This document shows, piece after piece, positions 12,752 to 33,968 of a DNA stretch of 40,013 bases. This stretch comes from an uncultured Candidatus Saccharibacteria bacterium (lineage in GTDB: Bacteria > Patescibacteriota > Minisyncoccia > Phycocordibacterales > UBA2100): NCBI GenBank assembly GCA_964592945.1, contig CAZQGK010000001.1, positions 9,224-49,236 on the forward strand. The letters are read 5' to 3'. The translations under genes were made by a program, and so were the position numbers. Under the pieces are notes generated by a model, which had not been told where the DNA came from, did not search any database, and saw nothing but the letters and a program-made list of their open reading frames with translations. Each line of letters opens with the position of its first letter. Position 1 is the stretch's first letter.

Positions 12752-12753
12752 AC

Positions 12754-13491: not shown

Positions 13492-13611
13492 AGACTATCT
13501 GTGAAGGCTAGTGAAGTGAGTCTACCACGCGGTGTTTGCCTACGATGCGTAGCGACGGTATCATGCGAGCACACGAGTAGCATGTTCATTATTGGAAGGG
13601 AGGACGGAGTA

Positions 13612-13917: not shown

Positions 13918-13929
13918 GCGACACATAGC

Positions 13930-13971
13930 GACCGGCGCCATCTAGGATGGTGCCGGTCGTTCGACTTTTTT
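13930..13971 (+). terminator. Rho-independent terminator
   Basis: 13-bp stem (gaccggcgccatc / gatggtgccggtc, one mismatch) with a 3-nt loop, followed by gttcgacTTTTTT. Confidence 0.6.
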
Positions 13972-14046: not shown

Positions 14047-14075
14047 TTGAACAACATATCCCCTTGGGTTATAGT
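14047..14075 (+). promoter_or_regulatory. Sigma70-like promoter of TctC-1 (TTGAAC, 17 nt, TATAGT)
   Basis: ttgaac at 14047..14052, a 17-nt spacer, and tatagt at 14070..14075. It lies about 50 nt upstream of an SD-led ATG. Confidence 0.4.
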
Positions 14076-14126
14076 CGTGCCTGTGGTCGTTCGATTATCG
14101 GATGATCGGGAGAGGGAGAACACTAG

Positions 14127-15068
14127 ATGCGCTTTATTCGAATGATGCTCACTTACGCGTTCGCGTGCATTGTCTCAGGTCCGGCACTCGGGGAAACCTT
14201 TCCCAGCCGGGCCATTACGGTCATCGTCCCCACTACGCCGGGGTCCGGGACCGATATCGGCACGCGGCTCATCGCCGACCATATGTCCAAGACCCTGGGT
14301 CAGCCAGTGGTTATTGAGAACGTGGGCGGTGCCATCGGGATTGTCGGGACGAGGCGCTGTGCAGACGCGACGGCGGACGGCTATACGATCTGCGCCACCA
14401 ACTACGGCCAGATCGTTCTCGCGCCCTTCGACTACAAGGCACGGGGCGAGAAACTGGGCTACGAAGTGTCGTCGCTTAGGCCGGTGGCACGAACACTGCT
14501 GTTCGATTTCGTGCTCGTCGCGCACAAGAATGTGGGCGCCACGCTTCCCGAAGTGCTCGCGTACGCGCGCGCACACAACGGGCTTACCGTCGGTAACGGC
14601 GGTACGACCGGTGAGTACGCCACAAAACTACTGCGTGGCCTGCAAGCCACAAAAGTGGTTTTCGTGCCGTACCGCGGCGACCCGCTTGCAATGGCGGACG
14701 TCCTCAACGGAAGCATCAACGCCGCCTTCATGACGGCCACTGTCGCACTGCCGCACCTCAAGAGCGACATAGTGCGCGTGGTCGGCACAGTGGGAAGGAA
14801 AAAAAGCGCCCTTCTGCAGACCGTCCCCACCCTGTACGAACAAGGGTGCCTGGCCTGCGGAGACCTCGACTCATGGGGCGGTATGTTTGCCCCGAATGGC
14901 GTGCCGGAGGACAGGATGCGTATCCTGAGCCGGGCGGTTCTTGCGGCGCTCCATGACCCGGGCGTCATCGAGAAGCTGGAAAAGGCCAAGCTTACGGCAT
15001 ATCCAGCAGCCCCCGACGTGTTCGCGAACGTCATCAAGCACAACATCGCGGAGGCTCAGAAACGTTGA
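14127..15068 (+). CDS. Bug/TctC-family periplasmic solute-binding protein (TctC-1), orphan
   Basis: 313 aa with a signal peptide, then FPSRAITVIVPTTPGSGTDIGTRLIA and ...VENVGGAIG..., which are Bug-family N-terminal hallmarks. SD GGGAGAGGGAG lies upstream. Confidence 0.85.
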   Translation: MRFIRMMLTYAFACIVSGPALGETFPSRAITVIVPTTPGSGTDIGTRLIADHMSKTLGQPVVIENVGGAIGIVGTRRCADATADGYTICATNYGQIVLAPFDYKARGEKLGYEVSSLRPVARTLLFDFVLVAHKNVGATLPEVLAYARAHNGLTVGNGGTTGEYATKLLRGLQATKVVFVPYRGDPLAMADVLNGSINAAFMTATVALPHLKSDIVRVVGTVGRKKSALLQTVPTLYEQGCLACGDLDSWGGMFAPNGVPEDRMRILSRAVLAALHDPGVIEKLEKAKLTAYPAAPDVFANVIKHNIAEAQKR

Positions 15069-15083
15069 GCCCTATGACCTACC

Positions 15084-15116
15084 CCGGCGGCACGCGAGTG
15101 TCGCCGGAACATTTTT
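15084..15116 (+). terminator. Rho-independent terminator of TctC-1
   Basis: 10-bp stem (ccggcggcac / gtgtcgccgg, one G-U pair), GCGA tetraloop, then aacaTTTTT. Confidence 0.65.
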
Positions 15117-15145
15117 AATTACAAGACGGGCACACCTCGTGCAGA

Positions 15146-16561
15146 CTATTTACACTCGGTCGGATACACAGGGAGGCATCCTGTTGTTACCGGCGCCGAG
15201 AGCGTGCTGTGGAGGTCGTTCTCGACATGTTCCCGGAGCTTGTCTTTCAGAGTGGTTGCCTTCGCGACCTCTTTCGTGATGAGGTTTTCTTTTTCGCGCG
15301 GGTCGGTATTCAAGTTGTAGAGTTCTTCTTTGCCGTTTTCCAACGTAATGATGTATTTCCAACCATCCGCAGTGCGCACGCCGCGCTTGTGCGTGAAGTC
15401 GCGATAATCCGTCTCGATGAATACATCCCTGCCGGCGGTGGCAGCTCCCGTGATGTACGGCAAGAGACTTTTGCCTTCAAGCTGTCCGGCGAACGTGCCC
15501 GACGCCATTCCGAGCATCTGCACGAGTGTCGGTGCGACGTCCATCATGCTTACCTGCGCGGAAATTTTCACTCCTCCGCGCGTGCCGGGGATGCTCACTA
15601 TGACGGGCACATGCACGAGCTCGTCGTACAGCGTATGCCCGTGGTCGATGCCGCCGTGTTCATGCCACTCTTCGCCATGGTCGGATAGGACCACGATGAC
15701 CGTATTTTTGAGGAGTCCCCGCCCGTCCAGTGCGGCGATAAAATCCCCCACCCCGGCATCAGCCGCACGGATTTTGCTGTCGTAAAGGCCGTTCCAAAAC
15801 GCGACATCGGCGGGGGTAAGCGAGAGCGGGGAAACGAGTTGGTCCTCGCGGAGTTTTGCTTCCTCCTGCGGCGAGCCCGTGTACGGACCCTTGTAATCTT
15901 TCGGGACGAAAGACTCCGAACTGGTGGCGAGCTTGAACTGACCGTGGAGGTCATAGCCGTGGAAGAACATGAAAAACTTTTGATTCTTCGGAAGTGTGTC
16001 GAGCCACGCAAGCGCGTGCGTCTCGCTGTTGCCCAAGCCGCCGAATGTTTCCGCGTCGGTATAGATATCAAATCCCAGTCCGTAGCCGAACGCGTGCCCA
16101 ACACCCGCGTCTCCCGTAAACCCGCCGGTTACATATCCTGCGGCCTTCATCGCCTGCGCCAGCGTTTCTATCTGCGGCGAGAGTGCGCGCAGATCAGATA
16201 ATATTTGCTTCTTCGGGTCCTTCGGATCGTACTCGACATACTTGTTCGTCACCTTGTGCACGGAAGGGTAGGCGCCCGTCATGACGGACATGAACGCGGG
16301 CACCGTCCAGCTCGAGGCGGATATGGCGTTCACAAAGCTGTATCCCCCCGCCGCCAAGGCGTCGATGTGGGGAGTGGTCTCACGCGGGTACCCGAACGAA
16401 TGCACGCGGTCGGCACGCAATGTGTCTATACCGATGATGATGACGTTGCAGTCTTTGCACGATATGTCCGAAGACGTAGGCGAGCCTTTTCCGGACACAG
16501 CGAGACCGAGTGTGATGACGACAATGAATAAAACCGCCCCGAACAGCGCGCGCGTAACCAT
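15146..16561 (-). CDS. Membrane-anchored sulfatase-fold (alkaline-phosphatase superfamily) ectoenzyme AP-1
   Basis: 471 aa with an N-terminal TM helix, then NVIIIGIDTLRADRV...TPHIDAL and DHGEEWHEHGGIDHG. SSWTVPAF occupies the position of the sulfatase CxPxR motif. Confidence 0.8.
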   Translation of the reverse strand: MVTRALFGAVLFIVVITLGLAVSGKGSPTSSDISCKDCNVIIIGIDTLRADRVHSFGYPRETTPHIDALAAGGYSFVNAISASSWTVPAFMSVMTGAYPSVHKVTNKYVEYDPKDPKKQILSDLRALSPQIETLAQAMKAAGYVTGGFTGDAGVGHAFGYGLGFDIYTDAETFGGLGNSETHALAWLDTLPKNQKFFMFFHGYDLHGQFKLATSSESFVPKDYKGPYTGSPQEEAKLREDQLVSPLSLTPADVAFWNGLYDSKIRAADAGVGDFIAALDGRGLLKNTVIVVLSDHGEEWHEHGGIDHGHTLYDELVHVPVIVSIPGTRGGVKISAQVSMMDVAPTLVQMLGMASGTFAGQLEGKSLLPYITGAATAGRDVFIETDYRDFTHKRGVRTADGWKYIITLENGKEELYNLNTDPREKENLITKEVAKATTLKDKLREHVENDLHSTLSAPVTTGCLPVYPTECK

Positions 16562-16577
16562 AGTGCCCGGGAGTATA

Positions 16578-18164: not shown

Positions 18165-18171
18165 CCGCCTT

Positions 18172-18921
18172 TCAAACAGTGTCCGCCAAGTCGCCGGTGT
18201 AATATTTAATAATGGGGGTGGTGAGCGGCCTGTCTTTCGTGACCGTAAATCCTTCCTTGGTAGCGACCAGGAGGCAACCGGGAACAGGGATAAAAACAGG
18301 TTCGAGTGCGAACTCGGCTTCGGCAAATGCGCCGACCGCGGCTGCGGCGCGTACCAAGCGCATCCGACGCGCGTACGCGGTGAACGGCTGTAGTGTTCGT
18401 GTGTCAAAAGTCTCTCCTATGACCGTTATCGCCTCGAGCATTTCCTCCCGCTCCGCAAGGTATGGTGCGAGCTTTGTGAGCGCCCGTTCATCGGTGATGA
18501 GCGAATCGACGTTATACTTTCGAGCCGCAAAGGCGGCAATGTCGGGATCGGCCTCGCCGACGAGAGGGACCATGCCGTTCTCGTAACACCACACCGACTT
18601 CTCGAGTGCCTCATGAGAGTTCTCCATGTACACCAGCGGCCGCTTTGAGATGACGCCGAACGGTTCACGCGCAATATCCTCAAAGGCCCACTCGGAAAGA
18701 AACGATCCGTTCGCAGTATGAATAATCTTTACGAGAGAGATGTCGTCTTTGTATCTGCGTGTGGGAAGCGGAGCGCGCACGAAGTCGTCAATGGTAACAA
18801 GCGGCAACTCGTCGAAGGTGCGCTTGCCTCCCCATAGTTCCCGGTAAAAGGAAGCCTGAGGGTGGCTGGCAACAGCAGCGATGAGCCGCTCTATCTTATT
18901 GTTATCACGTAATTCAGGCAT
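18172..18921 (-). CDS. B-family protein B2: ligase paralogue with no P-loop
   Basis: 249 aa, alignable along its length with B1 and B3 (SFYRELWG, RRYKDD, FLSEWAFEDIAREPFG, HEALEKSVWCYENGMVPL, KYYTGD). The P-loop position reads IHTANGSF. Confidence 0.75.
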   Translation of the reverse strand: MPELRDNNKIERLIAAVASHPQASFYRELWGGKRTFDELPLVTIDDFVRAPLPTRRYKDDISLVKIIHTANGSFLSEWAFEDIAREPFGVISKRPLVYMENSHEALEKSVWCYENGMVPLVGEADPDIAAFAARKYNVDSLITDERALTKLAPYLAEREEMLEAITVIGETFDTRTLQPFTAYARRMRLVRAAAAVGAFAEAEFALEPVFIPVPGCLLVATKEGFTVTKDRPLTTPIIKYYTGDLADTV

Positions 18922-18923
18922 AG

Positions 18924-20039
18924 TTACGTGCGTTGCATAACCTTTACCTCTTTGAATTTGGCGGGAAAGGGTTCGGACACGAACTCGACAACGAGCGGGA
19001 GGAAGTTCTTTTCCGATACAAGTTCCCCGAGTGTCCGCGTAGGAGTGAGAAACAGGTTTTGGGATACCAATTCGGCGATGTGTGCACCTAATTGCGGATC
19101 TGAAACTCCATCGGCGCGGAACACGCGTAGCACGATCTTCCCCGTGATGCGGCCGTCAACTAATTCTTCCGAGGCCTCGGCACGATAGTCGTCGGCCATT
19201 CCCGGCTCCAGTGAAAGTACCCTGTCGAATTCCTCGCGTCGCAAAATCGTCCCGGCAATTTTCAAGTAGTCGAACCCACGCCTGCCGACAATTTCAAAAG
19301 TAATCGCCTCACCGCACGGGCAGGGACCGCACATACGCACAATATCGCCGGTGCGATATCTTTCTATCGTAACTCCCTGCGGTAAATGTCTCGTCACCAG
19401 GAGGTCGCCGTACCCGTGCTCGTCCGGCTCGCGTATTTCTATCGTTACGTCCTTGGCGGGATGGTACTGGTTCAGAGGAGTGTGCCCGCACGACGGCAAC
19501 GACACGGGCAAAAACAATTCCGTCACATTGTACATAGTCCGGATGCGGGCAAAAGGGAAACTCTCGCGCAGTAATTTTACCCGTGGTTCGGTCATCACCT
19601 CGCCTGCGACATCCATAGTACTCACTCCGCGTCGAACATCCTCAGGAACGTTCGACGAGAGCTTGATGGCGAACGATATGAGCCCGCGTATATGGTCGGG
19701 TGCGAATTCACTGAGCAGACGGGGAAGCTCCGGAGTGAAATCGTCGTAATCCAGGGCAAGCGATGCAGATCTGTTGCACGCAGGGTTGCTCCTCATTATA
19801 ACGAGATACCTCAAACGTATGCTTCGCGTACCGACACAGGTAAGACGCCGTCTTGAGTCGCCCACCCAATCCGGCGCAAGACGCCCGGCCGCAACGGCCA
19901 GCATGAGCCCCTTACCTGTGCTTCCGGAGGTCGTACACAAGCAATACGCATACACGTCTTTGTGCCCTTCACGTATCACTTCAGCAAGAAGAGGATCGCA
20001 TATGACCCGCGGCGCGTCTTTACGCTCTAATATCTCCAT
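18924..20039 (-). CDS. Short PaaK/F390-synthetase-like adenylate-forming ligase A2
   Basis: 371 aa with CTTSGSTGKG (P-loop), YRTGDIVRM, CPCGEAITFEIVGRRGFDYLKIAG and a C-terminal KFKEVKV. The start lies 6 nt after the C1 stop. Confidence 0.8.
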   Translation of the reverse strand: MEILERKDAPRVICDPLLAEVIREGHKDVYAYCLCTTSGSTGKGLMLAVAAGRLAPDWVGDSRRRLTCVGTRSIRLRYLVIMRSNPACNRSASLALDYDDFTPELPRLLSEFAPDHIRGLISFAIKLSSNVPEDVRRGVSTMDVAGEVMTEPRVKLLRESFPFARIRTMYNVTELFLPVSLPSCGHTPLNQYHPAKDVTIEIREPDEHGYGDLLVTRHLPQGVTIERYRTGDIVRMCGPCPCGEAITFEIVGRRGFDYLKIAGTILRREEFDRVLSLEPGMADDYRAEASEELVDGRITGKIVLRVFRADGVSDPQLGAHIAELVSQNLFLTPTRTLGELVSEKNFLPLVVEFVSEPFPAKFKEVKVMQRT

Positions 20040-20045
20040 AGCGCC

Positions 20046-20270
20046 CTACTCCAAAAAACCTCCGCAACTAACAAAGAGTATCTTATTCGGATTTTGTTTC
20101 GGCGCTTGTTGCACGCCGCTATCGGGCGAGCACTCATTGTCCGAAGCAAGTTTCGGCGTATTGTTGTGAGCGAAAAATTGCTGTACGTATATATATGTGT
20201 ACAAGAGCGCGGCAAACACGAAGGCCGCAGCGACGATGACCATTTGGCGGATAGTGATGCGCTCTCGCAT
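20046..20270 (-). CDS. Tail peptide C1: 74-aa N-terminally membrane-anchored peptide ending ...NPNKILFVSCGGFLE
   Basis: It has a basic N-terminus (MRERITIRQ) and a TM helix (MVIVAAAFVFAALLYTYIYV). The C-terminal SCGGF is shared with three other small ORFs but encoded by different codons. TACAAT lies 6 nt upstream of the ATG. Confidence 0.75.
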   Translation of the reverse strand: MRERITIRQMVIVAAAFVFAALLYTYIYVQQFFAHNNTPKLASDNECSPDSGVQQAPKQNPNKILFVSCGGFLE

Positions 20271-20276
20271 AATTTC

Positions 20277-20282
20277 ATTGTA
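20277..20282 (-). promoter_or_regulatory. -10 box (TACAAT) 6 nt from the C1 ATG; TTGCCC lies 16 nt further upstream
   Basis: The reverse strand reads TTGCCC-16 nt-TACAAT-gaaatt-ATG, with no SD. The spacer contains the 20288..20303 inverted repeat. Confidence 0.4.
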
Positions 20283-20324
20283 GCGCGTGCCCGTACGCGG
20301 GCAAGCCGCGGCTATATTACCGCC

Positions 20325-22031: not shown

Positions 22032-22047
22032 CCCGTACGTGGAGATG

Positions 22048-22425
22048 TCACACAGGAAATTCGCGTCTCTCAACCTCGCGAACCCTCTCCGGCTTAAAGT
22101 ACTTCTTAGCCAGCACAAAAAAACGCTCCGCTTTGGCGTCGTTATTTTCTGAATAATGACAATAAAACAGACGGATATGTGCGGTGCCGGCTTCGGGCCA
22201 TGTGTGTATGTCAACGCTGGATTCTCCAATTATCACAGAGACCGTCACTCCGCCTGCACCCTCAAACTTTTTACTCGCGACCGGCTCATATACCGTAAAG
22301 CCGGCCTTGCGCACGAGTCCTGCAAACGCAGCGCCTAGATCTGCATCGGTCAGTGCTGCGACATTCGCACAGTCCTGAAAAATCCAGCCGCGATCGATGC
22401 TTATGGTATCGTTCATGGTCCGCAA
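22048..22425 (-). CDS. speH: S-adenosylmethionine decarboxylase proenzyme (small, pyruvoyl-dependent type)
   Basis: 125 aa with VIIGESSVDIHTWPE, which is the self-cleavage Glu-Ser site and the HTWPE motif. Confidence 0.85.
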   Translation of the reverse strand: MRTMNDTISIDRGWIFQDCANVAALTDADLGAAFAGLVRKAGFTVYEPVASKKFEGAGGVTVSVIIGESSVDIHTWPEAGTAHIRLFYCHYSENNDAKAERFFVLAKKYFKPERVREVERREFPV

Positions 22426-22428
22426 ATC

Positions 22429-25441: not shown

Positions 25442-25542
25442 GGCGATAGTATACCCTTTTGCCAAGGCAAAACGATTAGTATAGTATCAGCCACTGGTTC
25501 AAATCGTGGCGGATATCCGTCACAAGTACAAGGAGAAGGACA

Positions 25543-26535
25543 TTGAAAATACTTGCAAGAGTGGCTGCTGCGGCCGTGTTGGTCGTTGCATCTCTTGGGT
25601 TCGCGCAAGCGTATCCCGATGGGCCGGTGCGCGTTATAGTCCCGACGCAGGCCGGTAACCCGGCTGATATCGTGACGAGGATCTTGTGCGACAAGTTGAG
25701 TGAGATCCTCGGGGCTCGATTCTTCGTCGAAAACCGCCCCGGAGCATTCGGCGAGATCGCGTTCCGTGACCTCGTGCGGGCAGCTCCGGACGGTTACACG
25801 TTGGGGCACTCCGGCAACGGCCCGATAACTATCCTACCCGCTGCGCGAGTTGCAGCGGATATGCCGAAAGACAAGATCCCGTACGACCCGATACGGGATC
25901 TCGAGCCCATCAACTTCACCGCTTACGACCAATTCGTCTTTGCGGTGCCGAGGAGTAGTCCATTTCGCTCCTCGAAAGAGCTGGTGGACTATGCCCGGGC
26001 ACATCCCGATGAGCTCGCGATAGCCGCGGGTACACCGAGCGGCAGGTTGGCGGTTGCCTTCCTCAACGCAATCCCTGGCGTGCGCGTCAGGGAAATCGGA
26101 TCCGGACAAGGAGAGGAAACAGCGTACCGGGATATCCGTAGCGGCGAGAAGATTGACGGTATCTTCTCCACGGTGCTCGGGGCTCTTCCGAAAGAAGACA
26201 TCGTGCGACCGCTTGCCCTCGTCGGCGGGACCAGAACCCCACTGTTTCCAAACGTGCCAACGATGGTCGAAGAAGGATTCGAGACCTTCGACGCGAGAAT
26301 GGAAGCCTGGTACGCCTTCACCGGGCCGAAGGGACTTCCAAAGCCCATCATCGAGAAGCTGAGTAAGGCGATCGATACGGCCGTGCGCGATCCGCGCGTC
26401 CAAGAAAGGTTGGCGAAAATCGGCATCACGACTCGCCATTCGACAACCGCGGTTCTCAGCGATGAGATTGCGCGGCAGTACAAGGGACTGGCGGCGTTTA
26501 TGAAGGAGAACGGGGTCAAGTTGCTCGGTAAGTAG
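25543..26535 (+). CDS. Bug/TctC-family solute-binding protein (TctC-2), orphan
   Basis: 330 aa with a TTG start after AGGAGAAGGA. The signal peptide ends FAQA and is followed by YPDGPVRVIVPTQAGNPADIVTRIL. Confidence 0.85.
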   Translation: MKILARVAAAAVLVVASLGFAQAYPDGPVRVIVPTQAGNPADIVTRILCDKLSEILGARFFVENRPGAFGEIAFRDLVRAAPDGYTLGHSGNGPITILPAARVAADMPKDKIPYDPIRDLEPINFTAYDQFVFAVPRSSPFRSSKELVDYARAHPDELAIAAGTPSGRLAVAFLNAIPGVRVREIGSGQGEETAYRDIRSGEKIDGIFSTVLGALPKEDIVRPLALVGGTRTPLFPNVPTMVEEGFETFDARMEAWYAFTGPKGLPKPIIEKLSKAIDTAVRDPRVQERLAKIGITTRHSTTAVLSDEIARQYKGLAAFMKENGVKLLGK

Positions 26536-26562
26536 TCACCGTATTCTCCACCGACATGAAAA

Positions 26563-26591
26563 GGCGGCAGCGAAATCTGCCGTCTTTTTTT
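26563..26591. terminator. Bidirectional intrinsic terminator between convergent TctC-2 and A3
   Basis: 8-bp stem (ggcggcag / ctgccgtc, one G-U pair) with a 6-nt loop. It is flanked by AAAA upstream and TTTTTTTATTTTT downstream. Confidence 0.65.
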
Positions 26592-26605
26592 ATTTTTACT
26601 GCGCT

Positions 26606-27724
26606 CTATTGCGAGACTCGTCTAAGCTTCACGTCTTTATGTTTTTGAGGAAAGGGCTTGGCGGAAAATGTAACAGTAAGCGGCAAAAACGCGCCCTTCC
26701 CAACCAGGTCGGCAAGCGTCTGCGTGGGCGTAAGAAATACCGCGCGGGAAAAATTGCGGGCAATTTCTTCGGCGAGCGCGGGCGTGCCCTGCCCTTTGCG
26801 AGAGAAGACGTGCAGAATGATACTGCCTTTAAGTTTTCCATTGACAAGCTTTTCCCCCGCTTCCACTCGATAATCATCGATAGAATGCGCAAAGAGCGCG
26901 GCAACCCGATCAAATTCTTCGCGGCGGACGATGGTGCCTGAGATCTTGATATAGTCGTTGCCACCGCGGCCAAGATGTTCAAATGTGACCGGAGCGCCGC
27001 ATACGCACGGCTCGTTACTCAAGCGGCCTATATCGCCGATCGCATATCGCTCAATGTGTTCTCCGTACGAAAGGATTTTGGAGACGATAATATCGCCTAC
27101 TTCCGTTTCGTCCCTATCAATAATATCGATTTTGACGTCGGGTGCCTCGTGGTAGACATTTGGCGGGAGGTTTGTGCACTGCACGCCGATGAGGCCGATC
27201 TCGTTCGTCCCGTAGAACATCGTGATGCGGGCAAGCGGCGCAAGCGACCGGAAGGATTTGAGGCGCGCTGGCTCCAGGCGCTCGCCGGCGAGTCGGAACG
27301 TGCGAATAGCCTGAGGTACGACGGGCGTGGAAACCTTGAGTACGAGCCCGATAAACGATGCGGTCCCCGATACCTCGTCGGGCATAAGATCCTCGAGTAT
27401 GTTTCCGAGTCGCGGAACATCCTCATTATCAATGTTCAATACTGATCTCGGTTTCTCGCCGCGCGCGTGTCTGAAGTGGAGCGTGTTTGCCAGCCGGACA
27501 TTTCGTGAGCCCATACAGATGAGGAGATTTGAAGTCTCCGCGTACTTCGAAAACTGTCGGTCACCGTACTCTAGGACTGAGACGATAGGAGTGTCAGACG
27601 TCCCAGACGTAAGCCTGATGCCGAACCGGCAAGCCTCACGTGGCACAGAGGCAATAAAATCTTCGAGTAGCCGCGCATCGACCGCCGCGATATCTGTGCG
27701 ATCTACGAATCCTCCATCCGTCAT
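26606..27724 (-). CDS. Short PaaK/F390-synthetase-like adenylate-forming ligase A3
   Basis: 372 aa with RLTSGTSDTP (a variant P-loop), FYGTNEIG, YAIGDIGRL, CVCGAPVTFEHLGRGGNDYIKISG and a C-terminal KHKDVKL. It has an ATGA overlap with the B3 stop. Confidence 0.75.
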   Translation of the reverse strand: MTDGGFVDRTDIAAVDARLLEDFIASVPREACRFGIRLTSGTSDTPIVSVLEYGDRQFSKYAETSNLLICMGSRNVRLANTLHFRHARGEKPRSVLNIDNEDVPRLGNILEDLMPDEVSGTASFIGLVLKVSTPVVPQAIRTFRLAGERLEPARLKSFRSLAPLARITMFYGTNEIGLIGVQCTNLPPNVYHEAPDVKIDIIDRDETEVGDIIVSKILSYGEHIERYAIGDIGRLSNEPCVCGAPVTFEHLGRGGNDYIKISGTIVRREEFDRVAALFAHSIDDYRVEAGEKLVNGKLKGSIILHVFSRKGQGTPALAEEIARNFSRAVFLTPTQTLADLVGKGAFLPLTVTFSAKPFPQKHKDVKLRRVSQ

Positions 27725-28470
27725 ACGACCGTGATATCACGGATATCCGTGCGGTATCGAATGACCGGCGTAATCAGGCGTGTGAGCTTCGTGACGACAA
27801 GAGTGCCGTCCTCCGATTCGACAAACGTATTAGGCACCGTGCGGAATACAGGTTTATCGGCAAGCGGCGCTTCGGCAATCGCTCCCACCTCGGGCAACCG
27901 CAAAACGAAGCGGACCGTTCGCGCGAAATCCGAGAACGGCATGAGCGTCGGCGCGTCGAATGAATCGCCGAGAACGGTAAGCGACATGAGTTTTTCCCCG
28001 CGACGTTTCAAATATGGCAACAATTTCGGGAGAGATGCGGTGTCTGTGATAAGCTGGTCGATACGATACTTCCCCGCCGCGAACATCGCGATATCGGCAT
28101 CACGTTCGCCGATGAGCGGCACCATGTTGTTTTCATAGCACCACATGGATTTCTCCAATGCCTCGTGCGAGTCCTCCAGATAGACCATTGGACGCTTCGA
28201 TGGTACGCCCCATGGTTCTTGCCCGATGTCATCGAAACTCCATTCTGAAAGGAACGGGCCCTCTGGTGTGTGAACGATTTTCACCAGCGCTTTCTCATCT
28301 TTATATCGCCGCTTGGAGAGCGGCACTTTCAGAAAATCGTTCCGTGAGACCAAAGGGAGCTCGTCAAAATTTGCAACTCTCCCCCAGATTTCGCGGTAGA
28401 ATCCGGACATTCCGCTTTTCATCACGTCATCTACGAATGCTGATATGCTGTTTTTTATTCCGTGTTCCAT
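27721..28470 (-). CDS. B-family protein B3: ligase paralogue with no P-loop
   Basis: The start is set at ATG 28470 (MEHGIKNS...), 4 nt after the A4 stop, which gives 249 aa like B1 and B2. The track start 28548 overlaps A4. Motifs are GFYREIWG, RRYKDE and FLSEWSFDDIGQEPWG. The P-loop position reads VHTPEGPF. Confidence 0.75.
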   Translation of the reverse strand: MEHGIKNSISAFVDDVMKSGMSGFYREIWGRVANFDELPLVSRNDFLKVPLSKRRYKDEKALVKIVHTPEGPFLSEWSFDDIGQEPWGVPSKRPMVYLEDSHEALEKSMWCYENNMVPLIGERDADIAMFAAGKYRIDQLITDTASLPKLLPYLKRRGEKLMSLTVLGDSFDAPTLMPFSDFARTVRFVLRLPEVGAIAEAPLADKPVFRTVPNTFVESEDGTLVVTKLTRLITPVIRYRTDIRDITVV

Positions 28471-28474
28471 GGAG

Positions 28475-29626
28475 CTATATTCGTTGCGACAACCTGACCT
28501 CTTTGCCCTTCTCCTTCTCAAGCTCCGCTCCTCCAAACTCAACCGCAAGCGGCATTATATAACCGGACTCCACGAGTGTATTAAGCGTTTTGGCGGCGGT
28601 TACAAATAACTCCTCGGAAAAACGCCGCCGTATTCGCTCTAAAAGAGCGGCGTCACCCTGTCCATCTTTCCGGTATATCTTTAGGGTTATTCTGCCTTTG
28701 AGCTTTCCCCCCGACATGACACTGTCAACGTGGACGAAATAATCATCCATCAAATCGCTGCACAACAGTGCCACCCTGTCGAATTCCTCCCTTCGCAATA
28801 TTACGCCGGCCACTTTGAGGTAATCGGACCCGCGTTTCCCCACCACTTCGAAGGTGACCTTTTCACCGCATGCGCATTCTATACTATGGAGTCTGCCAAC
28901 ATCTCCGATTTTGTACCGTTGTATGGAAATATTTCTGTTGAAATTTTTTGAGATCAATATATCACCAACCCCGCTATCGTCGGGTCCGGCTATCTCCACC
29001 GTCACGCCATCGTGCGGGTGGTACTGATTCGGAGGCAGAAATCCGCAAGAGGGTTTTGATATCTGACCGGTTTCTCCGGAAGAATATAGCATCCGTATTT
29101 CCGCGTAGGGGAAAGAAGTGCGTATCAGTATCTCGGCCTTTTTTGACAGACCCTCCCCCGTAAACCGCAGACTGTTGATTTTTCTTCTCGCCTCTTCGTC
29201 CAAATAGTCGGTCATTTTGGAGATAAAGAATGGAAATCCATACAATCTGTCGGGCGCAAAATCAGAAAGTAGCTCGGAAACACCCTGTATCATATCGCGC
29301 GCATCCATAACAATAACGCGGGACGGACTGCCCGGATCACTGTTCCTCAAGAAAAGAAGCGAGCCAAGCCTCATTCCCAATACACCTTGGCAGAGGAGCG
29401 TTCTTTTTGCGCCGGCGGGAAATGTATGGATGTTGACCCCGCTTCCCCATGCGAGAAGAAGCGGTTCGCCGCCTGATGTGCCGGACGTCATGCGCAGACC
29501 ACAACGCTTGGCCTCTTCTTTCGGCGCGGACAAAAGGTCCGCCAGCATTTTTTCGGCCACAGGCTTAAAATCCCCGCGCTCCATGACGGAAGCAGTACGC
29601 ATTTCACTTTTCTTGAAGCTTTTCAT
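28475..29626 (-). CDS. Short PaaK/F390-synthetase-like adenylate-forming ligase A4
   Basis: 383 aa with RMTSGTSGGEP (P-loop), LYSSGETG, YKIGDVGRL, CACGEKVTFEVVGKRGSDYLKVAG and a C-terminal KEKGKEVRL. Confidence 0.8.
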   Translation of the reverse strand: MKSFKKSEMRTASVMERGDFKPVAEKMLADLLSAPKEEAKRCGLRMTSGTSGGEPLLLAWGSGVNIHTFPAGAKRTLLCQGVLGMRLGSLLFLRNSDPGSPSRVIVMDARDMIQGVSELLSDFAPDRLYGFPFFISKMTDYLDEEARRKINSLRFTGEGLSKKAEILIRTSFPYAEIRMLYSSGETGQISKPSCGFLPPNQYHPHDGVTVEIAGPDDSGVGDILISKNFNRNISIQRYKIGDVGRLHSIECACGEKVTFEVVGKRGSDYLKVAGVILRREEFDRVALLCSDLMDDYFVHVDSVMSGGKLKGRITLKIYRKDGQGDAALLERIRRRFSEELFVTAAKTLNTLVESGYIMPLAVEFGGAELEKEKGKEVRLSQRI

Positions 29627-29748
29627 TTTTTACCCCACGGAATCGCGCCTTATCATAAAGACAATTGGCGTGGAGTTCACCGGGTCGAGCAATCGTATCA
29701 CCGGGGCATATGTCCTGCAAAGCAGCAGGTTCTTGTACGCACATGGAA

Positions 29749-29777
29749 TTGACAGTTTTACACATACCACGTATGGT
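29749..29777 (+). promoter_or_regulatory. Sigma70-like promoter of TctC-3 (TTGACA, 17 nt, TATGGT)
   Basis: A perfect -35 ttgaca at 29749..29754, a 17-nt spacer, and tatggt at 29772..29777. It lies about 50 nt upstream of the SD-led GTG. Confidence 0.5.
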
Positions 29778-29830
29778 TTTCATCGGCTTGTTCCCAAGCC
29801 AAAATATTTGTGGACACAAGGGAGGAATCG

Positions 29831-30799
29831 GTGCACAAATTCATCATCGGTCTTTACGCACTTGTTCTGTCCGGGATAGCTTGGTCCGCGCAGGCCGCGG
29901 AACATGCCTACCCCAACAGGACCGTTACGATTGTCGTGCCCTTCACTGCGGGCGACGGAGCGGATGTGGCCGCCAGACTTGCGGCGGAGGCACTCGCAAA
30001 GGCCCTCAAGGGGAACTTCGTCGTGATGAACAGGCCGGGCGCCGGTGGCGCTATCGGTGTGGAGTCGGTACTTCAGTCGCCGAAGGACGGCTACACGATT
30101 TTGTTCACGACCAATACCCCGTTGACGATCCGTCGCGTGGTGTATCCGGGTACGACATCCTACGATCCCTTCAAGGATCTTGTTCCGCTCGGGGTCATAG
30201 CACGTTTCCCGAGCATCCTTGCGGTACGAAACGACTCACCATACAAGAACCTGCGCGAGTTGGTCGAATACGGCAAAGGCCATCCCGGGGCGCTTGGCTT
30301 CAGCACTCCGGGATTCGGTAGTCTCGGTCAGCTGAACCTCGCGATTCTGAATGCGCAAAGCGGTGCCGGCATACGAGCCATCCTCGAATACAAGGGGTCC
30401 ACCCCGGCTGTCACCGACCTGCTCGGCGGACATGTGGACGGCGTGGCAACATCGCTCGGTGCTGCAAGCAGCCACATACGGGGAGGCGCTCTGCGGGCAA
30501 TCGCGATATCGAAAAAGTTTCCCGGTTTCGATATTCCGACACTCACGGAATCCGGATACCGGGAGGATATCCTCGGTCTCTGGGTGGGTTTCTTCGCAGT
30601 CGCGGGCACTCCGCAAGAGACGGTGGACCGTCTCGTACCGGCAATCAAGCGGATGACGGACGACCGCGGGCTCTCCGAGAAACTTCTCGGAAACGGCATG
30701 CTGTTGGAATATATTCCGCCGGCGGCCGTGGAAAAGGAGCTCGACTGGGAAACAAAAACGGTCGCGAGCATCGTTAAAAAGCTGACAGCGCCAAAGTAA
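29831..30799 (+). CDS. Bug/TctC-family solute-binding protein (TctC-3), orphan
   Basis: GTG 29831 is preferred because GGAGG lies 5 nt upstream; the track start is 29810. The signal peptide (HKFIIGLYALVLSGIAWSAQA) is followed by AEHAYPNRTVTIVVPFTAGDGADVAARL. Confidence 0.85.
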   Translation: MHKFIIGLYALVLSGIAWSAQAAEHAYPNRTVTIVVPFTAGDGADVAARLAAEALAKALKGNFVVMNRPGAGGAIGVESVLQSPKDGYTILFTTNTPLTIRRVVYPGTTSYDPFKDLVPLGVIARFPSILAVRNDSPYKNLRELVEYGKGHPGALGFSTPGFGSLGQLNLAILNAQSGAGIRAILEYKGSTPAVTDLLGGHVDGVATSLGAASSHIRGGALRAIAISKKFPGFDIPTLTESGYREDILGLWVGFFAVAGTPQETVDRLVPAIKRMTDDRGLSEKLLGNGMLLEYIPPAAVEKELDWETKTVASIVKKLTAPK

Positions 30800-30820
30800 G
30801 CTGACGCTGGCAAGCATTCA

Positions 30821-30851
30821 GAGGGGGGCCCGACGGCCCTCCTTGTTTTTT
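30821..30851 (+). terminator. Rho-independent terminator of TctC-3
   Basis: 10-bp G/C-rich stem (gaggggggcc / ggccctcctt, two G-U pairs), cgac loop, then gTTTTTT. Confidence 0.6.
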
Positions 30852-30858
30852 ATGTATC

Positions 30859-31095
30859 TCACTCAATAAATCCCCCACAGCTGATGAAAAGCATTTTGTT
30901 CGGGTTTTCTTGCTGAGCCTGAAACGATGGGTCGGTGCATGCTCTTCCAATGGCAAAGGAGAGCGTCTGGTATACCGTACGGGTAACAAACCCGTGAACG
31001 TAGAGATATGCGCCCAGAATGACGCCAAAGAGAGCCGCGGCAAACAAAACTGGGTATGTCCGCAGGTAGTGCAACACACCGTCATCGTACCACAA
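30859..31095 (-). CDS. Tail peptide C2: membrane-anchored peptide ending ...NPNKMLFISCGGFIE
   Basis: The track start is TTG 31095 (78 aa). GTG 31077, with TACGAT 6 nt upstream, is an alternative, so the start is uncertain. It has a TM helix (VLFAAALFGVILGAYLYV), and the last 15 residues are near-identical to C1. Confidence 0.7.
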   Translation of the reverse strand: MWYDDGVLHYLRTYPVLFAAALFGVILGAYLYVHGFVTRTVYQTLSFAIGRACTDPSFQAQQENPNKMLFISCGGFIE

Positions 31096-31132
31096 AAGGG
31101 CTGAACCGCGCCTATGATAGTATCAACATTTC

Positions 31133-32797: not shown

Positions 32798-32822
32798 GAG
32801 GGACGTGCACACTGCACGTTCG

Positions 32823-32851
32823 TTGACAGCTGCATGAGCTGCCTCTACGAT
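32823..32851 (+). promoter_or_regulatory. Sigma70-like promoter of TctC-4 (TTGACA, 17 nt, TACGAT)
   Basis: A perfect -35 ttgaca at 32823..32828, a 17-nt spacer, and tacgat at 32846..32851. A 7-3-7 inverted repeat lies immediately upstream at 32803..32819. Confidence 0.45.
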
Positions 32852-32908
32852 GCGCGCAGGCACGTACAAATATCTGTTCCGACGTGCTGAATCAGGGAGA
32901 ACGAACGC

Positions 32909-33883
32909 ATGAAGCTACGACCTGTGGCCGCGGCGCTCATCGCGCTCGCGTGCCTTGCTGCCTCTCCGGCGAAAGCCGCGGAGGAATACCCGTGCCAAGG
33001 AACGGTTCGTTTCGTCGTCGGACTCCCGGCGGGATCCACGACGGACGCCATCGTGCGTCAGATAGCGGGTGAGATGGCACCGCTTCTGAAGCGGACGATT
33101 ATCGTTGAGAACATCGTGGGCGCCGACGGTGCCCTCGGTGCGCGAAACGCGCTCGCAAGTGCAGCCGACGGGTGCAACTACCTGGCGGCGACCAACGGCA
33201 TGCTCGGCATCGAACAGAGGCTGGGGCCGCAAGGCTTCGACCTCGAAAAAGCGGTGCCGGTCGGCATGTTCGCCCGCAACTACCAAGTGCTCGTAGTTCA
33301 CCCGGCGGTTGCCGCGAATTTGGGCGAGTTGCTCGCGTACGTGAAAGCGAATCCCGGGACGCAATTCGCGCGTTCCGCGACTTCAAGTCTCATCGCTTGC
33401 GCCTACTTCGCAAAGAAGGCGGGGCTTGCGATGAAAGACATCTTCTACAAAGGCGATCCGCTGCTGATGCAGGACGTAGTTGCCGGACGTGTGCCCGTGG
33501 CATGCCCGTTCCTGTATCCGGTCCGCGGACAAATCGAGGCCGGTGCATTGCGGGCGCTCGCCATCCTTGGGCCCGGGCCGTTCAGCGAGTTGCCGACCGT
33601 CCCGGCGATTACCAATGTGCTTCCGGGCTCCGAAAAGCTCGGGGCGCTCGAGGGCCGCGGTTTCTTCGTGTGTCCTCCAGGATGTCCGGAGGCGGCCGTC
33701 GAGATGTTCTCGCGATATCTGCGGGAAATTCTCGCAAAGCCTGCAACGGTTACCCGCTTCCGCGAAAGCAGCGCGGAGGCGGTCTACATGACGCCGGGAG
33801 CAACGGCGTTGTACATCAAGTCGCAAAAAGCCCTTTTTACCGAAGTGGTGCGGGAAATCGGGCTGGAGTTCAAACCAAAATGA
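32909..33883 (+). CDS. Bug/TctC-family solute-binding protein (TctC-4), orphan
   Basis: 324 aa with SD AGGGAG upstream. The signal peptide ends PAKA and is followed by AEEYPCQGTVRFVVGLPAGSTTDAIVRQI and ...VENIVGADG. Confidence 0.8.
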   Translation: MKLRPVAAALIALACLAASPAKAAEEYPCQGTVRFVVGLPAGSTTDAIVRQIAGEMAPLLKRTIIVENIVGADGALGARNALASAADGCNYLAATNGMLGIEQRLGPQGFDLEKAVPVGMFARNYQVLVVHPAVAANLGELLAYVKANPGTQFARSATSSLIACAYFAKKAGLAMKDIFYKGDPLLMQDVVAGRVPVACPFLYPVRGQIEAGALRALAILGPGPFSELPTVPAITNVLPGSEKLGALEGRGFFVCPPGCPEAAVEMFSRYLREILAKPATVTRFRESSAEAVYMTPGATALYIKSQKALFTEVVREIGLEFKPK

Positions 33884-33897
33884 CCACGCTGGATTTG

Positions 33898-33929
33898 CCG
33901 GCGGCGCCCCTGGGTGCCGCCGGTTTCTT
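33898..33929 (+). terminator. Rho-independent terminator of TctC-4
   Basis: 11-bp stem (ccggcggcgcc / ggtgccgccgg, one G-U pair), cctg loop, then TTTCTTACTT. Confidence 0.55.
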
Positions 33930-33968
33930 ACTTGGAAGAATGTCCGCCGTGCAATACCATACGTTGAA

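What the first reader, a model, noticed from the sequence alone, without database searches (positions are those of the whole stretch)
14047..33929. Four orphan TctC/Bug binding proteins are each self-contained expression units unlike their neighbours
All four TctC-like genes have three things in common. Each has a -35/-10 promoter with a 17-nt spacer, and the -35 is a perfect TTGACA for TctC-3 and TctC-4. Each has a ~50-nt leader with a strong SD. Each has its own G/C-rich intrinsic terminator. Most other genes here, including L25, E1, E2, C1, C3, C4, D1 and D3, have a -10 box only 6-9 nt from the start codon and no SD. By eye, the TctC genes are also more GC-rich than the neighbouring D and C genes; I did not compute this. 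No TctA or TctB membrane components are present. Large orphan Bug families are best known from Betaproteobacteria, so four copies in a CPR-like context, all beside carboxylate-activating ligases, is unusual. They may be acquired genes that capture the carboxylate substrates, or they may be unrelated insertions.
Basis: partly seen in the sequence, partly recalled or inferred. Interest (0 to 1): 0.65.

Follow-up and report, generated by a model that had tools for sequence, protein, structure and literature searches.

The report
Self-contained TctC binding-protein genes in Kaiserbacteria
Four exported carboxylate-binding (TctC/Bug) genes of a Kaiserbacteria-like ultra-small bacterium each carry their own full promoter, leader, ribosome-binding site and terminator among otherwise leaderless genes; this layout is kept in every relative examined, and the genes belong to a conserved, undescribed gene module built around PaaK-like ligases.

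Summary
All four genes are true TctC/Bug-family binding proteins. Only they, one small membrane ORF and PfkB have a strong Shine-Dalgarno site, out of 34 genes. Fifteen of the 34 have a -10 box 3-12 nt before the start codon, so they are leaderless. The four TctC terminators are among the five strongest hairpins in the window.

The organism is a Candidatus Kaiserbacteria relative (core proteins 72-78% identical). In related loci, every TctC homologue has an SD-type leader, none has a -10 box next to its start, and all that could be scored have a strong terminator. All unique copies are about 5% richer in GC than their locus. Neighbouring gene families, including DctP-type binding proteins, are mostly leaderless and lack terminators.

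The TctC genes are not random insertions. They recur inside a conserved module: a small Cys-motif protein, PaaK-like ligases, degenerate ligase partners and a protein of unmatched fold. In that module TctC, DctP or an SSS-type permease fills the substrate-acquisition position. No TctA/B or DctQ/M lies near any copy. No close donor exists (39% identity at most), so recent transfer is unlikely. Function remains inferred.

The parts
14047..15117 (+). TctC-1 expression unit. Promoter TTGAAC-17-TATAGT at 14047-14075, a leader of about 45 nt, SD GGGAGAGGGAGA at 14108-14119, CDS 14127-15068 (313 aa, signal peptide) and terminator hairpin 15084-15107 followed by a T-run.
25459..26601 (+). TctC-2 expression unit. 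Promoter TTGCCA-17-TAGTAT at 25459-25487, SD AAGGAGAAGG at 25530-25539, CDS 25543 (TTG)-26535 and terminator 26558-26589, which is usable in both directions. It lies on the opposite strand between C3 and E_b.
29749..30853 (+). TctC-3 expression unit. Promoter TTGACA-17-TATGGT at 29749-29777, SD GGGAGG at 29820-29825, CDS 29831 (GTG)-30799 and terminator 30821-30844. It lies on the opposite strand between small gene S-b and ligase C4.
32823..33934 (+). TctC-4 expression unit. Promoter TTGACA-17-TACGAT at 32823-32851, SD AGGGAG at 32894-32899, CDS 32909-33883 and terminator 33897-33924.
13536..13971 (+). A fifth unit of the same style. Promoter TTGCCT-17-TATCAT, SD AAGGGAGGA, a 101-aa ORF at 13612-13917 with 2-3 predicted membrane helices, and a 16-bp terminator at 13927-13961. 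It has no family match and is not conserved in relatives.
10138..11541 (-). M489, a 12-TM permease. It is a divergent member of the sodium:solute symporter family. It has its own terminator at 10129-10109.
11642..13491 (-). D1-C1 operon. D1 (12754-13491) is a degenerate ligase-like partner. C1 (11642-12751) is a PaaK-like ligase. The two are translationally coupled.
18172..20270 (-). S-a / C2 / D2 operon. It holds the small Cys-motif protein S-a (about 20270-20046), ligase C2 (20039-18924) and D2 (18921-18172).
26606..29626 (-). C4-D3-C3 ligase operon.
30859..31078 (-). S-b, a small protein ending in NPNKMLFISCGGFIE. It is separated from C4 by the TctC-3 unit.
33969..38252 (+). Dp1-Cp1, S-c (36021-36275) and Dp2-Cp2. 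The C' genes are full-length PaaK-like ligases and the D' genes are their partners.
8681..10081 (-). E_a, a soluble member of the E family. Other copies are E_b 24083-25441 (-) and the membrane-anchored long forms E_c 20325-22031 (+) and E_d 31133-32797 (+).

Best explanation
The four genes encode genuine exported TctC/Bug-type binding proteins for carboxylic acids in a Candidatus Kaiserbacteria-like CPR bacterium. They are long-resident parts of a lineage-specific, multi-copy gene module.

The module contains:
- a small Cys-motif protein (S);
- PaaK-like adenylating ligases (C and C');
- degenerate ligase-like partners (D and D');
- a protein family with no match among solved structures (E, plus a membrane-anchored long form).

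In this module the substrate-acquisition position is filled by a TctC protein, a DctP-type binding protein or an SSS-type permease.

Each TctC gene is an autonomous one-gene transcription unit. It has a full -35/-10 promoter, a 45-51-nt leader with a Shine-Dalgarno site, an ORF with a signal peptide and a strong intrinsic terminator. Nearly everything around it is leaderless (a -10 box just before the ATG) or translationally coupled without an SD.

Shown: this architecture and the GC excess are kept in all divergent homologues, so they are maintained traits.

Inferred:
- Selection keeps the architecture, and it does so to give each binding protein a high, independently set output that is insulated from neighbours and works in either orientation within the module.
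- The proteins capture extracellular carboxylic acids.
- A membrane partner that is not encoded next to them takes the acids in. This could be the SSS-like permease, or TctAB elsewhere in the genome.
- The adjacent ligases then activate the acids.
For: Family membership. Pfam PF03401. The profile matches all solved Bug structures over their full length, E from 6e-75 to 6e-46.

Architecture in the window.

Architecture across the lineage. The counts below include three copies seen twice in overlapping or near-identical loci; 14 homologues are unique.
- 18 TctC homologues: median SD energy -7.4 kcal/mol, 0% with a -10 box next to the start, 16 of 16 scorable with a terminator of -12 kcal/mol or stronger. 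The downstream hairpins, recomputed for 12 of them and the four window genes, range from -18.2 to -28.8.
- E (n=32): median SD energy +0.3, 72% leaderless, 7% with a terminator.
- C, D, C' and D': 0-8% with a strong SD.
- DctP (n=9): 78% leaderless.
- Own promoter scoring at least 9.5 in 11 of the 18 unique TctC genes (four in the window, 14 in relatives), against 3.2% of random windows.
- GC excess of +5.3% in 14 of 14.

Module conservation.

Ligases are PaaK-like.

M489 is SSS-like. 41 of 57 relatives hit PF00474.

Native, not chimeric. Depth is uniform and contigs bridge the junctions. T1 and T2 have their best matches in Kaiserbacteria MAGs (182 and 191 bits, against 159 and 169 for the best non-CPR protein). 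The NJ tree pairs them at 59% and 55% bootstrap. A derived change in the carboxylate-clamp motif is shared by 12 of 12 CPR copies and by 36 of 231 generic Bugs.

Bug proteins are among the most abundant proteins in Bordetella (PMC5812351).
Against: - There is no expression data. No RNA run holds the sequence, so transcription starts, leader lengths and abundance are predictions.
- DctP-type binding proteins in the same modules are leaderless. 'Binding proteins need high output' therefore does not explain by itself why only TctC genes are built this way.
- No membrane partner was identified. SSS-like permeases and TctC mostly occur in different loci, and only the window has both. This reads as alternatives more than as partners.
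- Deep phylogeny is unresolved (bootstraps of 12% or less). T3 and T4 score better against non-CPR Bugs than against other CPR copies.
- The second Gly of the Bug clamp motif is replaced in all four proteins, so the type of ligand is uncertain.
- The ligases might act on the small S protein and not on an imported acid.
Confidence: 0.55

Rival explanations
1. Historical legacy. The ancestor of the Kaiserbacteria-like clade took the TctC genes from an SD-using double-membrane bacterium such as a proteobacterium. The promoter, SD, terminator and higher GC are the donor's style, kept because they work. They would not be tuned for any special expression need.
For: - The Bug family is centred on Proteobacteria, and the best non-CPR hits are Rhizobiales and Bradyrhizobium BugD-like proteins.
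- The low-GC clade with the same module has no TctC, so TctC was added later.
- Signal peptides look like cleaved periplasmic ones with no clear lipobox.
- TctC genes stand apart in GC.
Against: - Homologues have diverged to about 25-37% identity, yet all keep the SD, the terminator and the GC excess. Neutral legacy signals and synonymous-site GC should have decayed over that span.
- Codon-usage distance to the core block (0.115-0.148) is close to that of the core genes themselves (0.089-0.140).
- No donor-like sequence above 39% identity turned up in searches of a collection of 5.8 billion proteins.
- This idea explains origin, not maintenance, and is compatible with the main explanation.
Confidence: 0.2
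2. The TctC proteins are not transport components. They could be extracellular sensors or signal receptors, as BctC is with BctE. They could also be scavenging or adhesion proteins, or partners of the membrane-anchored E-long or S proteins.
For: - No TctA/B or DctQ/M is found in the window or among the multi-membrane-helix ORFs of about 494 kb of module-bearing loci.
- The TTT review records genomes with tctC but no tctA, and a signalling role for BctC (PMC5812351).
- E-long and S proteins, each with an N-terminal membrane helix, sit next to TctC.
Against: - TctC shares its position with a DctP-type binding protein or an SSS permease, both of which are uptake components.
- No sensor kinase or chemoreceptor gene is seen in the modules.
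- Absence of TctA/B was tested only locally.
Confidence: 0.13
3. Recent foreign insertions that have nothing to do with the neighbouring ligases.
For: The genes have higher GC, their own expression signals and variable orientation. The TctC-3 unit sits inside an S-to-C spacer that is at most 51 nt long in other loci.
Against: - The association with the module is conserved in at least 9 loci from different environments.
- There is no close donor.
- Depth is uniform and no variant without the genes appears in 4 runs.
- No mobile-element genes or tRNA genes are found nearby.
Confidence: 0.07
4. Chance consensus matches, or an assembly chimera.
For: Single promoter-like and terminator-like matches are common. 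The scan found 18 and 26-29 per 20 kb, against 11-13 and 20-22 expected.
Against: - All four genes carry all three elements in the right order and at the right spacing.
- The pattern repeats in 14 independent homologues.
- Two further assemblies reproduce parts of the region, and per-run contigs bridge every TctC junction.
Confidence: 0.02

Closest known systems
Orphan Bug (TctC-family) binding proteins of Bordetella, Cupriavidus and Rhodoplanes (Antoine et al. 2003; reviewed in PMC5812351; PMC5994714)
   Same: - Same protein family (PF03401) and the same overall sequence pattern as the solved Bug structures.
- Several divergent paralogues with no tctA/tctB next to them.
- Often placed beside enzymes that use carboxylated substrates.
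- Bug proteins can be very abundant.
   Different: - The host is a small-genome CPR bacterium, not a large proteobacterial genome.
- The genes sit in a fixed position of a CPR-specific module.
- The second Gly of the P-F-x-A-G-G-x-x-D clamp motif is replaced in all 12 CPR copies.
- They are the only SD-led, terminator-bounded family in a leaderless setting.
- I found no paper that reports TctC in CPR/Patescibacteria.
Complete TTT systems (tctCBA / bctCBA)
   Same: The binding protein is of the same family and carries a Sec-type signal peptide.
   Different: There is no TctA or TctB in the window, in the extra contig sequence recovered, or in about 494 kb of related loci. The binding-protein gene is monocistronic and is not the first gene of a tctCBA operon.
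acs-yjcH-actP type pairing of an adenylate-forming ligase with an SSS permease (E. coli; from my own knowledge)
   Same: An ANL-superfamily ligase gene lies next to a sodium:solute-symporter-family permease, which suggests uptake followed by activation of a carboxylic acid. In the window this is D1-C1-M489. The same pairing occurs in 9 of the 32 metagenome loci and in genome locus L002.
   Different: The ligases are PaaK-like and not Acs-like, and come with degenerate partner proteins. The permease is too divergent for a direct Pfam hit. Binding proteins replace the permease in many loci.
Differential expression of binding-protein genes through their own strong signals and a hairpin after the gene (for example malE, hisJ; from my own knowledge)
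   Same: A strong hairpin directly after the binding-protein gene uncouples its level from the downstream genes.
   Different: Here the binding-protein gene is fully autonomous, may lie on the opposite strand, and the membrane genes are not downstream at all.
Leaderless-rich transcriptomes of Mycobacterium (PMC3898074, PMC4633059)
   Same: Many genes have a -10 box about 7 nt before the start codon and no SD. SD-led and leaderless genes coexist.
   Different: In this window the SD-led class is a small minority (6 of 34) and is dominated by one protein family. Leaderless use in Kaiserbacteria is inferred from sequence only. I found no report of it.

Membership tests
TctC/Bug solute-binding protein (TTT family, PF03401) | Significant match to the family model over the whole mature protein | tested here: met
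   PF03401 scores of 89-155 bits against a cut-off of 27. The profile of 8 CPR copies matches BugE, TphC, BugD, AdpC, MatC, Bug27 and others end to end, E from 6e-75 to 6e-46.
TctC/Bug solute-binding protein (TTT family, PF03401) | Exported protein with an N-terminal signal peptide | tested here: met
   Read by eye, with no predictor run. All four proteins and 8 relatives start with a basic N-terminus, a hydrophobic stretch of 15-20 residues and an AxA-like site just before the first beta-strand. There is no clear lipobox.
TctC/Bug solute-binding protein (TTT family, PF03401) | Carboxylate-clamp signature P-F-x-A-G-G-x-x-D in the beta1-alpha1 loop (PMC5812351) | tested here: inconclusive
   T1 has PTTPGSGTD, T2 PTQAGNPAD, T3 PFTAGDGAD and T4 GLPAGSTTD. 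The first Gly and the Asp are kept in all four, and the Pro in three. The second Gly is replaced in 4 of 4 window copies and 12 of 12 CPR copies, against 36 of 231 generic Bugs. Ser replacements are described as tolerated in the review.
Complete tripartite tricarboxylate transporter (TctCBA) | Cognate TctA (PF01970) and TctB (PF07331) membrane subunits | tested here: not met
   There is no hit in any window ORF, in the flanking contig, or among the 20 longest unassigned ORFs with four or more predicted membrane helices from about 494 kb of related loci. Presence elsewhere in the genome could not be tested.
Horizontally acquired (foreign) gene | Atypical composition compared with host genes | tested here: inconclusive
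   GC is +4 to +6 points and GC3 +6 to +10 points. Codon-usage distance to the core block is close to the core genes' own range. The GC excess is conserved in 14 of 14 divergent homologues.
Horizontally acquired (foreign) gene | Closest homologues in another lineage (donor identifiable) | tested here: not met
   The best non-CPR identity is 34-39%. T1 and T2 have their best matches in Kaiserbacteria MAGs. T3 and T4 are unresolved.
Autonomous SD-led transcription unit (sigma-70 promoter, leader, SD, intrinsic terminator) | All elements present in the correct order and spacing, more often than chance | tested here: met
   Sequence-level only. Transcription starts and ends were not measured, because no RNA run holds the sequence.
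PaaK-like adenylate-forming ligase (ANL superfamily), for neighbours C and C' | P-loop (T/S)SG(T/S)TG plus homology to the PaaK core | tested here: met
   TSGTTG or TSGSTG is present. The C profile hits PaaK structures 9s3l (7e-18) and 4r1l (9e-10, residues 31-333). C' hits PaaK NCBIfam models at 1e-15, below the curated equivalog cut-offs. Pfam AMP-binding is only weak.
Sodium:solute symporter family (PF00474), for M489 | Match to the family model | tested here: inconclusive
   M489 itself has no Pfam, NCBIfam or PDB hit. Of 57 HMMER relatives, 41 hit PF00474, with a best E of 3e-38. The protein has 12 predicted membrane helices.

The most novel reading that the evidence does not exclude
TctC (and DctP) binding proteins in Kaiserbacteria-like CPR bacteria work without TctAB or DctQM. 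They would be the substrate-capture arm of a previously undescribed system made of a small Cys-motif membrane protein S, a PaaK-like ligase paired with a degenerate partner, and the E protein, which has no structural match in the PDB. The system would import host- or community-derived carboxylic acids and ligate them to an acceptor, possibly the invariant Cys-Gly-Gly-Phe C-terminus of S. The many divergent copies per genome would each have a different specificity.
Probability: 0.2. Interest if true: 0.8.

Novelty: new variant of a known kind. Interest (0 to 1): 0.62.

Why it matters
CPR/Patescibacteria have tiny genomes and are thought to live off other cells, yet how they take up and use metabolites is poorly known. 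This lineage spends tens of kilobases on repeated modules that pair carboxylate-binding proteins or permeases with adenylating ligases and two protein families that match no curated family model. That points to a dedicated route for acquiring organic acids.

The expression contrast gives a clean natural case for two questions. One is why a leaderless-dominated bacterium keeps SD-led genes. The other is how binding-protein levels are uncoupled from their neighbours. In this lineage one protein family is always SD-led and bounded by a terminator, while the rest are leaderless.

The case also adds to the long-standing puzzle of what 'orphan' Bug proteins dock onto.

Tried and rejected
- RNA evidence. 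No public RNA run holds the sequence.
- Riboswitch or structured leader. Rfam finds nothing in the window. The leaders fold no better than shuffled sequences, z from -1.6 to +0.8.
- tRNA genes or integration hallmarks. None found.
- Small membrane ORF 13612 as a TctB analogue. It has no family hit and is not conserved in relatives.
- M489 as TctA. Rejected, because its relatives are SSS-family proteins.
- Recurrent ~610-700-aa proteins with 11-13 predicted membrane helices near TctC in relatives, as hidden TctA/B. Pfam gives only weak TPR or spermine-synthase matches and no TTT or TRAP family.
- E-family function. The AlphaFold model is confident (pLDDT 90.6), but no PDB fold match reaches E of 0.001 or better, and TM-scores normalised to the query are 0.17 or less.
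- D-family structure. The model is poor (pLDDT 46.5) and was not used. Only weak profile links support D as a P-loop-less ANL-like domain.
- A CPR-specific TctC clade from a profile search. The profile of 8 CPR copies pulls in generic Bugs with no score gap. The NJ tree groups 8 of 12 CPR copies, but without bootstrap support.
- Contexts of the best non-CPR hits (L006-L010, L018) are ordinary Bug-rich or LysR-linked loci and are not the module.
- A shared sequence element in the terminators. Only 6 of 16 contain GGCGGC, so the hairpins are conserved in function and not in sequence.
- Literature. I found no paper on TctC, or on leaderless initiation, in CPR.

Full report
**What is in the window**

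The 40-kb window (GC about 0.55) has housekeeping genes at both ends.
- 5' end: L31, SLT, L25, PfkB, a split transketolase with a PCC-domain gene between the halves, RPE, a pilin, RpiB and GAPDH.
- 3' end: a hexapeptide-repeat ORF running off the window.

Between about 8.7 and 38.3 kb lies a block of paralogous families.
- Four TctC genes.
- Four C genes of about 370 aa and two C' genes of about 420 aa.
- Three D and two D' genes of about 245 aa.
- Four E genes. Two are soluble and about 455 aa. Two are about 555-570 aa with an N-terminal membrane helix.
- Two membrane-anchored sulfatase-family genes.
- An AdoMet decarboxylase gene and a membrane-fused spermidine-synthase-like gene.
- A 12-TM protein, M489.

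**Check of the observation**

All four TctC-like ORFs hit PF03401 far above threshold. A profile of them matches every solved Bug/TctC structure end to end.

The promoter scan lists a -35/-10 pair with a 17-nt spacer in front of each gene. The -35 is a perfect TTGACA for T3 and T4. The -10 box ends 51-57 nt before the start codon.

I scored every curated start codon for pairing with the anti-SD sequence. The four TctC genes give -8.2 to -11.3 kcal/mol, which is the top 3% of all 3,726 start triplets in the window. Only two of the other 30 genes reach -8: the small ORF at 13612 and PfkB (Fisher p = 3e-4).

Fifteen of 34 genes have a TAnnnT box 3-12 nt upstream of the start, against 10.8% for background. 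These are leaderless by sequence. They include L25, TK-N, GAPDH, SLT, one sulfatase-like gene, all four E genes and both D' genes.

Operon-internal genes such as C1 and C3 have neither an SD nor a -10 box. They overlap or abut the preceding stop codon.

The four TctC terminators have 10-13-bp GC-rich stems, energies of -18.5 to -24.3 kcal/mol and T-runs. With the hairpin after ORF 13612 they are the five strongest in the window.

GC and GC3 are highest in the TctC genes: 0.605 and 0.709, against 0.566 and 0.645 for the core block and 0.548 and 0.612 for the variable block. Part of this comes from an Ala/Gly/Pro-rich composition (GC2 0.475 against about 0.44). Codon-usage distance to the core block (0.115-0.148) is close to that of the core genes themselves (0.089-0.140).

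The assembly is not chimeric.
- Depth is even in four runs.
- Per-run contigs bridge each TctC gene to its neighbours.
- Two further assemblies reproduce parts of the region: one the T1 segment, the other the core block up to M489.

**Who it is**

A scan of species-representative genomes with the D family returned only CPR MAGs. Two are Ca. Kaiserbacteria with GC 55%, one is labelled Saccharibacteria and one Patescibacteria.

One Kaiserbacteria contig shares the core gene order. Its GAPDH and transketolase halves are 72-78% identical to the window's. Module proteins are only 30-54% identical, and TctC 29-37%. The whole module, TctC included, evolves fast.

**Origin of the TctC genes**

In a search of a collection of 5.8 billion proteins, the best non-self relative of T1 is 36-37% identical. 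These hits are Rhizobiales and Bradyrhizobium BugD-like proteins. No non-CPR protein exceeds 39% identity to any of the four.

T1 and T2 have their best matches in Kaiserbacteria MAGs: 182 and 191 bits, against 159 and 169 for the best non-CPR protein. The NJ tree pairs them with those matches at 59% and 55% bootstrap.

T3 and T4 score better against generic Bugs. T4's nearest sampled relative sits in a LysR/glycosyltransferase context. Deep nodes are unresolved.

All 12 CPR copies examined lack the second glycine of the Bug clamp motif P-F-x-A-G-G-x-x-D. It is replaced mostly by Ser or Asn. That glycine is absent in only 36 of 231 generic Bugs (p = 1e-9; motif from PMC5812351).

**The module**

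The E family has only 27 members in that collection. All are unnamed and none has a Pfam domain.

I collected its genomic contexts from four encoding contigs and 32 metagenome loci. The recurrent core is E-long on one strand and S-C-D-C-E on the other. S is a 71-83-aa protein with an N-terminal hydrophobic helix, 2-3 Cys and the C-terminus NPNKxLF(I/V)SCGGF(L/I/F)(E/D).

The C profile matches PaaK structures (E = 7e-18) and carries the TSGTTG P-loop. C' matches PaaK models at 1e-15. D and D' are weakly related to each other and to the N-domain of C. They lack the P-loop and end at the YRTG hinge.

E_b folds confidently (pLDDT 90.6) but has no PDB fold match.

M489 has no direct family hit, but 41 of its 57 HMMER relatives are SSF (PF00474) proteins.

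Substrate-acquisition genes in the 23 unique module loci of at least 8 kb, the window included (my count):

| Content of the locus | Loci |
|---|---|
| TctC (five of these also have DctP) | 9 |
| SSS-like permease | 9 |
| DctP only | 1 |
| Both TctC and SSS-like permease | 1 (the window only) |
| At least one of the three | 18 |

- Three shorter loci also hold TctC.
- The low-GC clade (0.34-0.45) has the SSS-like permease only.
- TctC often sits between the last ligase gene and E. It is on the same strand in L005, L014 and L017, and on the opposite strand for T2 in the window and in the Kaiserbacteria MAG.
- The TctC-3 unit sits on the opposite strand inside the S-to-C spacer. That spacer is at most 51 nt long in other loci.
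- No TctA, TctB, DctQ or DctM domain occurs in any gene table, or among the 20 longest unassigned ORFs with four or more predicted membrane helices from about 494 kb of these loci.

**The expression architecture across the lineage**

I chose start codons by their position relative to the family HMM, not by SD, and scored all module genes in the related loci. Some copies were sampled twice, so 14 of the 18 TctC homologues are unique.

| Family | n | Median SD energy (kcal/mol) | SD of -7 or stronger | -10 box next to start | Terminator of -12 kcal/mol or stronger |
|---|---|---|---|---|---|
| TctC | 18 | -7.4 | 56% | 0% | 16 of 16 |
| E | 32 | +0.3 | 0% | 72% | 7% |
| D' | 11 | -2.4 | 0% | 73% | 0% |
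| C | 36 | -2.7 | 8% | 19% | 3% |
| DctP | 9 | -2.8 | 0% | 78% | 22% |

- The hairpins after 12 of the relatives' TctC genes and the four window genes, recomputed separately, range from -18.2 to -28.8 kcal/mol.
- Own promoters scoring at least 9.5 occur upstream of 11 of the 18 unique TctC genes (four in the window, 14 in relatives), against 3.2% of random windows. Leaders are about 30-70 nt.
- Every one of the 14 unique TctC homologues is GC-richer than its locus, by 5.3 points on average. All other soluble families sit near zero.
- The terminators are textbook hairpins with unrelated sequences, so function is conserved and sequence is not.

**Interpretation**

The architecture and the GC excess persist across homologues that share only about 25-37% identity. 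They are therefore maintained traits, not an unameliorated trace of recent transfer.

The most economical reading is that each TctC gene is an autonomous, insulated, SD-driven unit. This lets the cell set the level of an exported binding protein independently of the neighbouring leaderless operons, and independently of orientation.

High abundance is typical of Bug proteins (PMC5812351). High output here is still an inference, because no RNA data exist. The leaderless DctP genes show that the rule is specific to this family and not general to binding proteins.

Three things support a functional link to carboxylate uptake and activation.
- The conserved position in the module.
- The interchange with DctP and SSS-type components. 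Both families include carboxylate carriers; this part is from my own knowledge.
- The ANL chemistry of the neighbours.

The membrane partner is unknown. The ligases could instead act on the S protein.

An ancient acquisition of TctC by the Kaiserbacteria-like clade is compatible with all the data. Recent or unrelated insertion is not.

**Comparison with what is known**

This is the orphan-Bug situation known from Bordetella, Cupriavidus and Rhodoplanes, now seen in a CPR lineage for which I found no report. Three features are new.
- A fixed place in an undescribed module.
- A shared change in the clamp motif.
- A family-specific expression architecture in a leaderless background.

Noticed in passing
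window ~20270-20046 (-), 31078-30859 (-), 36021-36275 (+), ~38300-38536 (+); also L002, L003/L011, L005, L014-L017, L020, L022, L024, L025, L041: A conserved family of small proteins (71-83 aa). Each has an N-terminal hydrophobic helix, 2-3 Cys and the C-terminus NPNKxLF(I/V)SCGGF(L/I/F)(E/D). In 12 of the 22 motif hits in relatives the gene lies within 51 nt upstream of a C or D ligase gene. It could be an acceptor or precursor for the ligases, or a membrane tether.
   Followed up: partly
window 24083-25441 (-), 8681-10081 (-), 20325-22031 (+), 31133-32797 (+): The E family has only 27 relatives in a collection of 5.8 billion proteins, all unnamed and with no Pfam domain. The AlphaFold model is confident (pLDDT 90.6, pTM 0.92), but Foldseek finds no PDB match (no E of 0.001 or better; query-normalised TM-scores of 0.17 or less). 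Long forms carry an N-terminal membrane helix.
   Followed up: partly
window 10138-11541 (-): A 12-TM permease with no direct Pfam, NCBIfam or PDB hit. Of its 57 HMMER relatives, 41 are sodium:solute symporter family proteins. It lies next to ligase or E genes in 9 of the 32 metagenome loci and in genome locus L002, and is the only acquisition gene in the low-GC clade.
   Followed up: yes
window 13536-13971 (+): A fifth unit with promoter, SD and terminator encodes a 101-aa protein with 2-3 predicted membrane helices, directly upstream of TctC-1. It has no family hit and is not found in related loci. It has the strongest SD (tied with TctC-3) and the longest terminator stem in the window.
   Followed up: partly
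window 12754-13491, 18172-18921, 27721-28470 (-); 33969-34700, 36256-37002 (+): D and D' proteins look like P-loop-less, truncated relatives of the PaaK N-domain that end at a YRTG hinge. Profile comparison gives D against C at E = 5e-4 and D' against D at E = 1e-5. Each is paired with a ligase gene. The structure model was too poor to confirm this.
   Followed up: partly
window 29749-30853 relative to 30859-31078 and 28475-29626: The TctC-3 unit lies on the opposite strand inside the spacer between S-b and ligase C4. That spacer is at most 51 nt long in other loci. The unit therefore appears to have been placed into an operon.
   Followed up: partly
whole window: Leaderless starts are frequent (a -10 box 6-10 nt before the ATG). 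Operon-internal genes are coupled by overlapping or abutting stop and start codons with no SD. SD-led starts are rare (6 of 34). The strongest promoter (TTGACA-16-TACAAT at 35986-36013) drives a leaderless gene.
   Followed up: partly
L011 13047-14156, L014 4614-6745, L015 4805-5848, L017 7226-8299, L004 1458-2525, L024 1375-2688: Orphan DctP-type (TRAP) binding-protein genes occur in the same modules in relatives with no DctQ/M nearby. Unlike TctC they are mostly leaderless and lack terminators.
   Followed up: partly
window 15146-16561 (-), 16578-18164 (-): Two membrane-anchored sulfatase-family proteins (PF00884 plus SGSH_C) lie next to TctC-1. By eye, the usual Cys/Ser nucleophile position of the CxPxR motif appears to be Thr or otherwise altered. 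One unrelated Bug-rich locus (L006) also has TctC next to a sulfatase gene.
   Followed up: no
window 22048-24093 (-): An AdoMet decarboxylase gene is followed by a 554-aa protein with about 8 membrane helices fused to a spermidine-synthase domain. In relatives, ~610-700-aa proteins with 11-13 predicted membrane helices and weak TPR or spermine-synthase matches recur near TctC genes.
   Followed up: no
window 3384-5663 (-): The transketolase is split into N and C halves, with a PCC-domain (PF03479) gene between them. The same order is found in a second assembly (L012).
   Followed up: no
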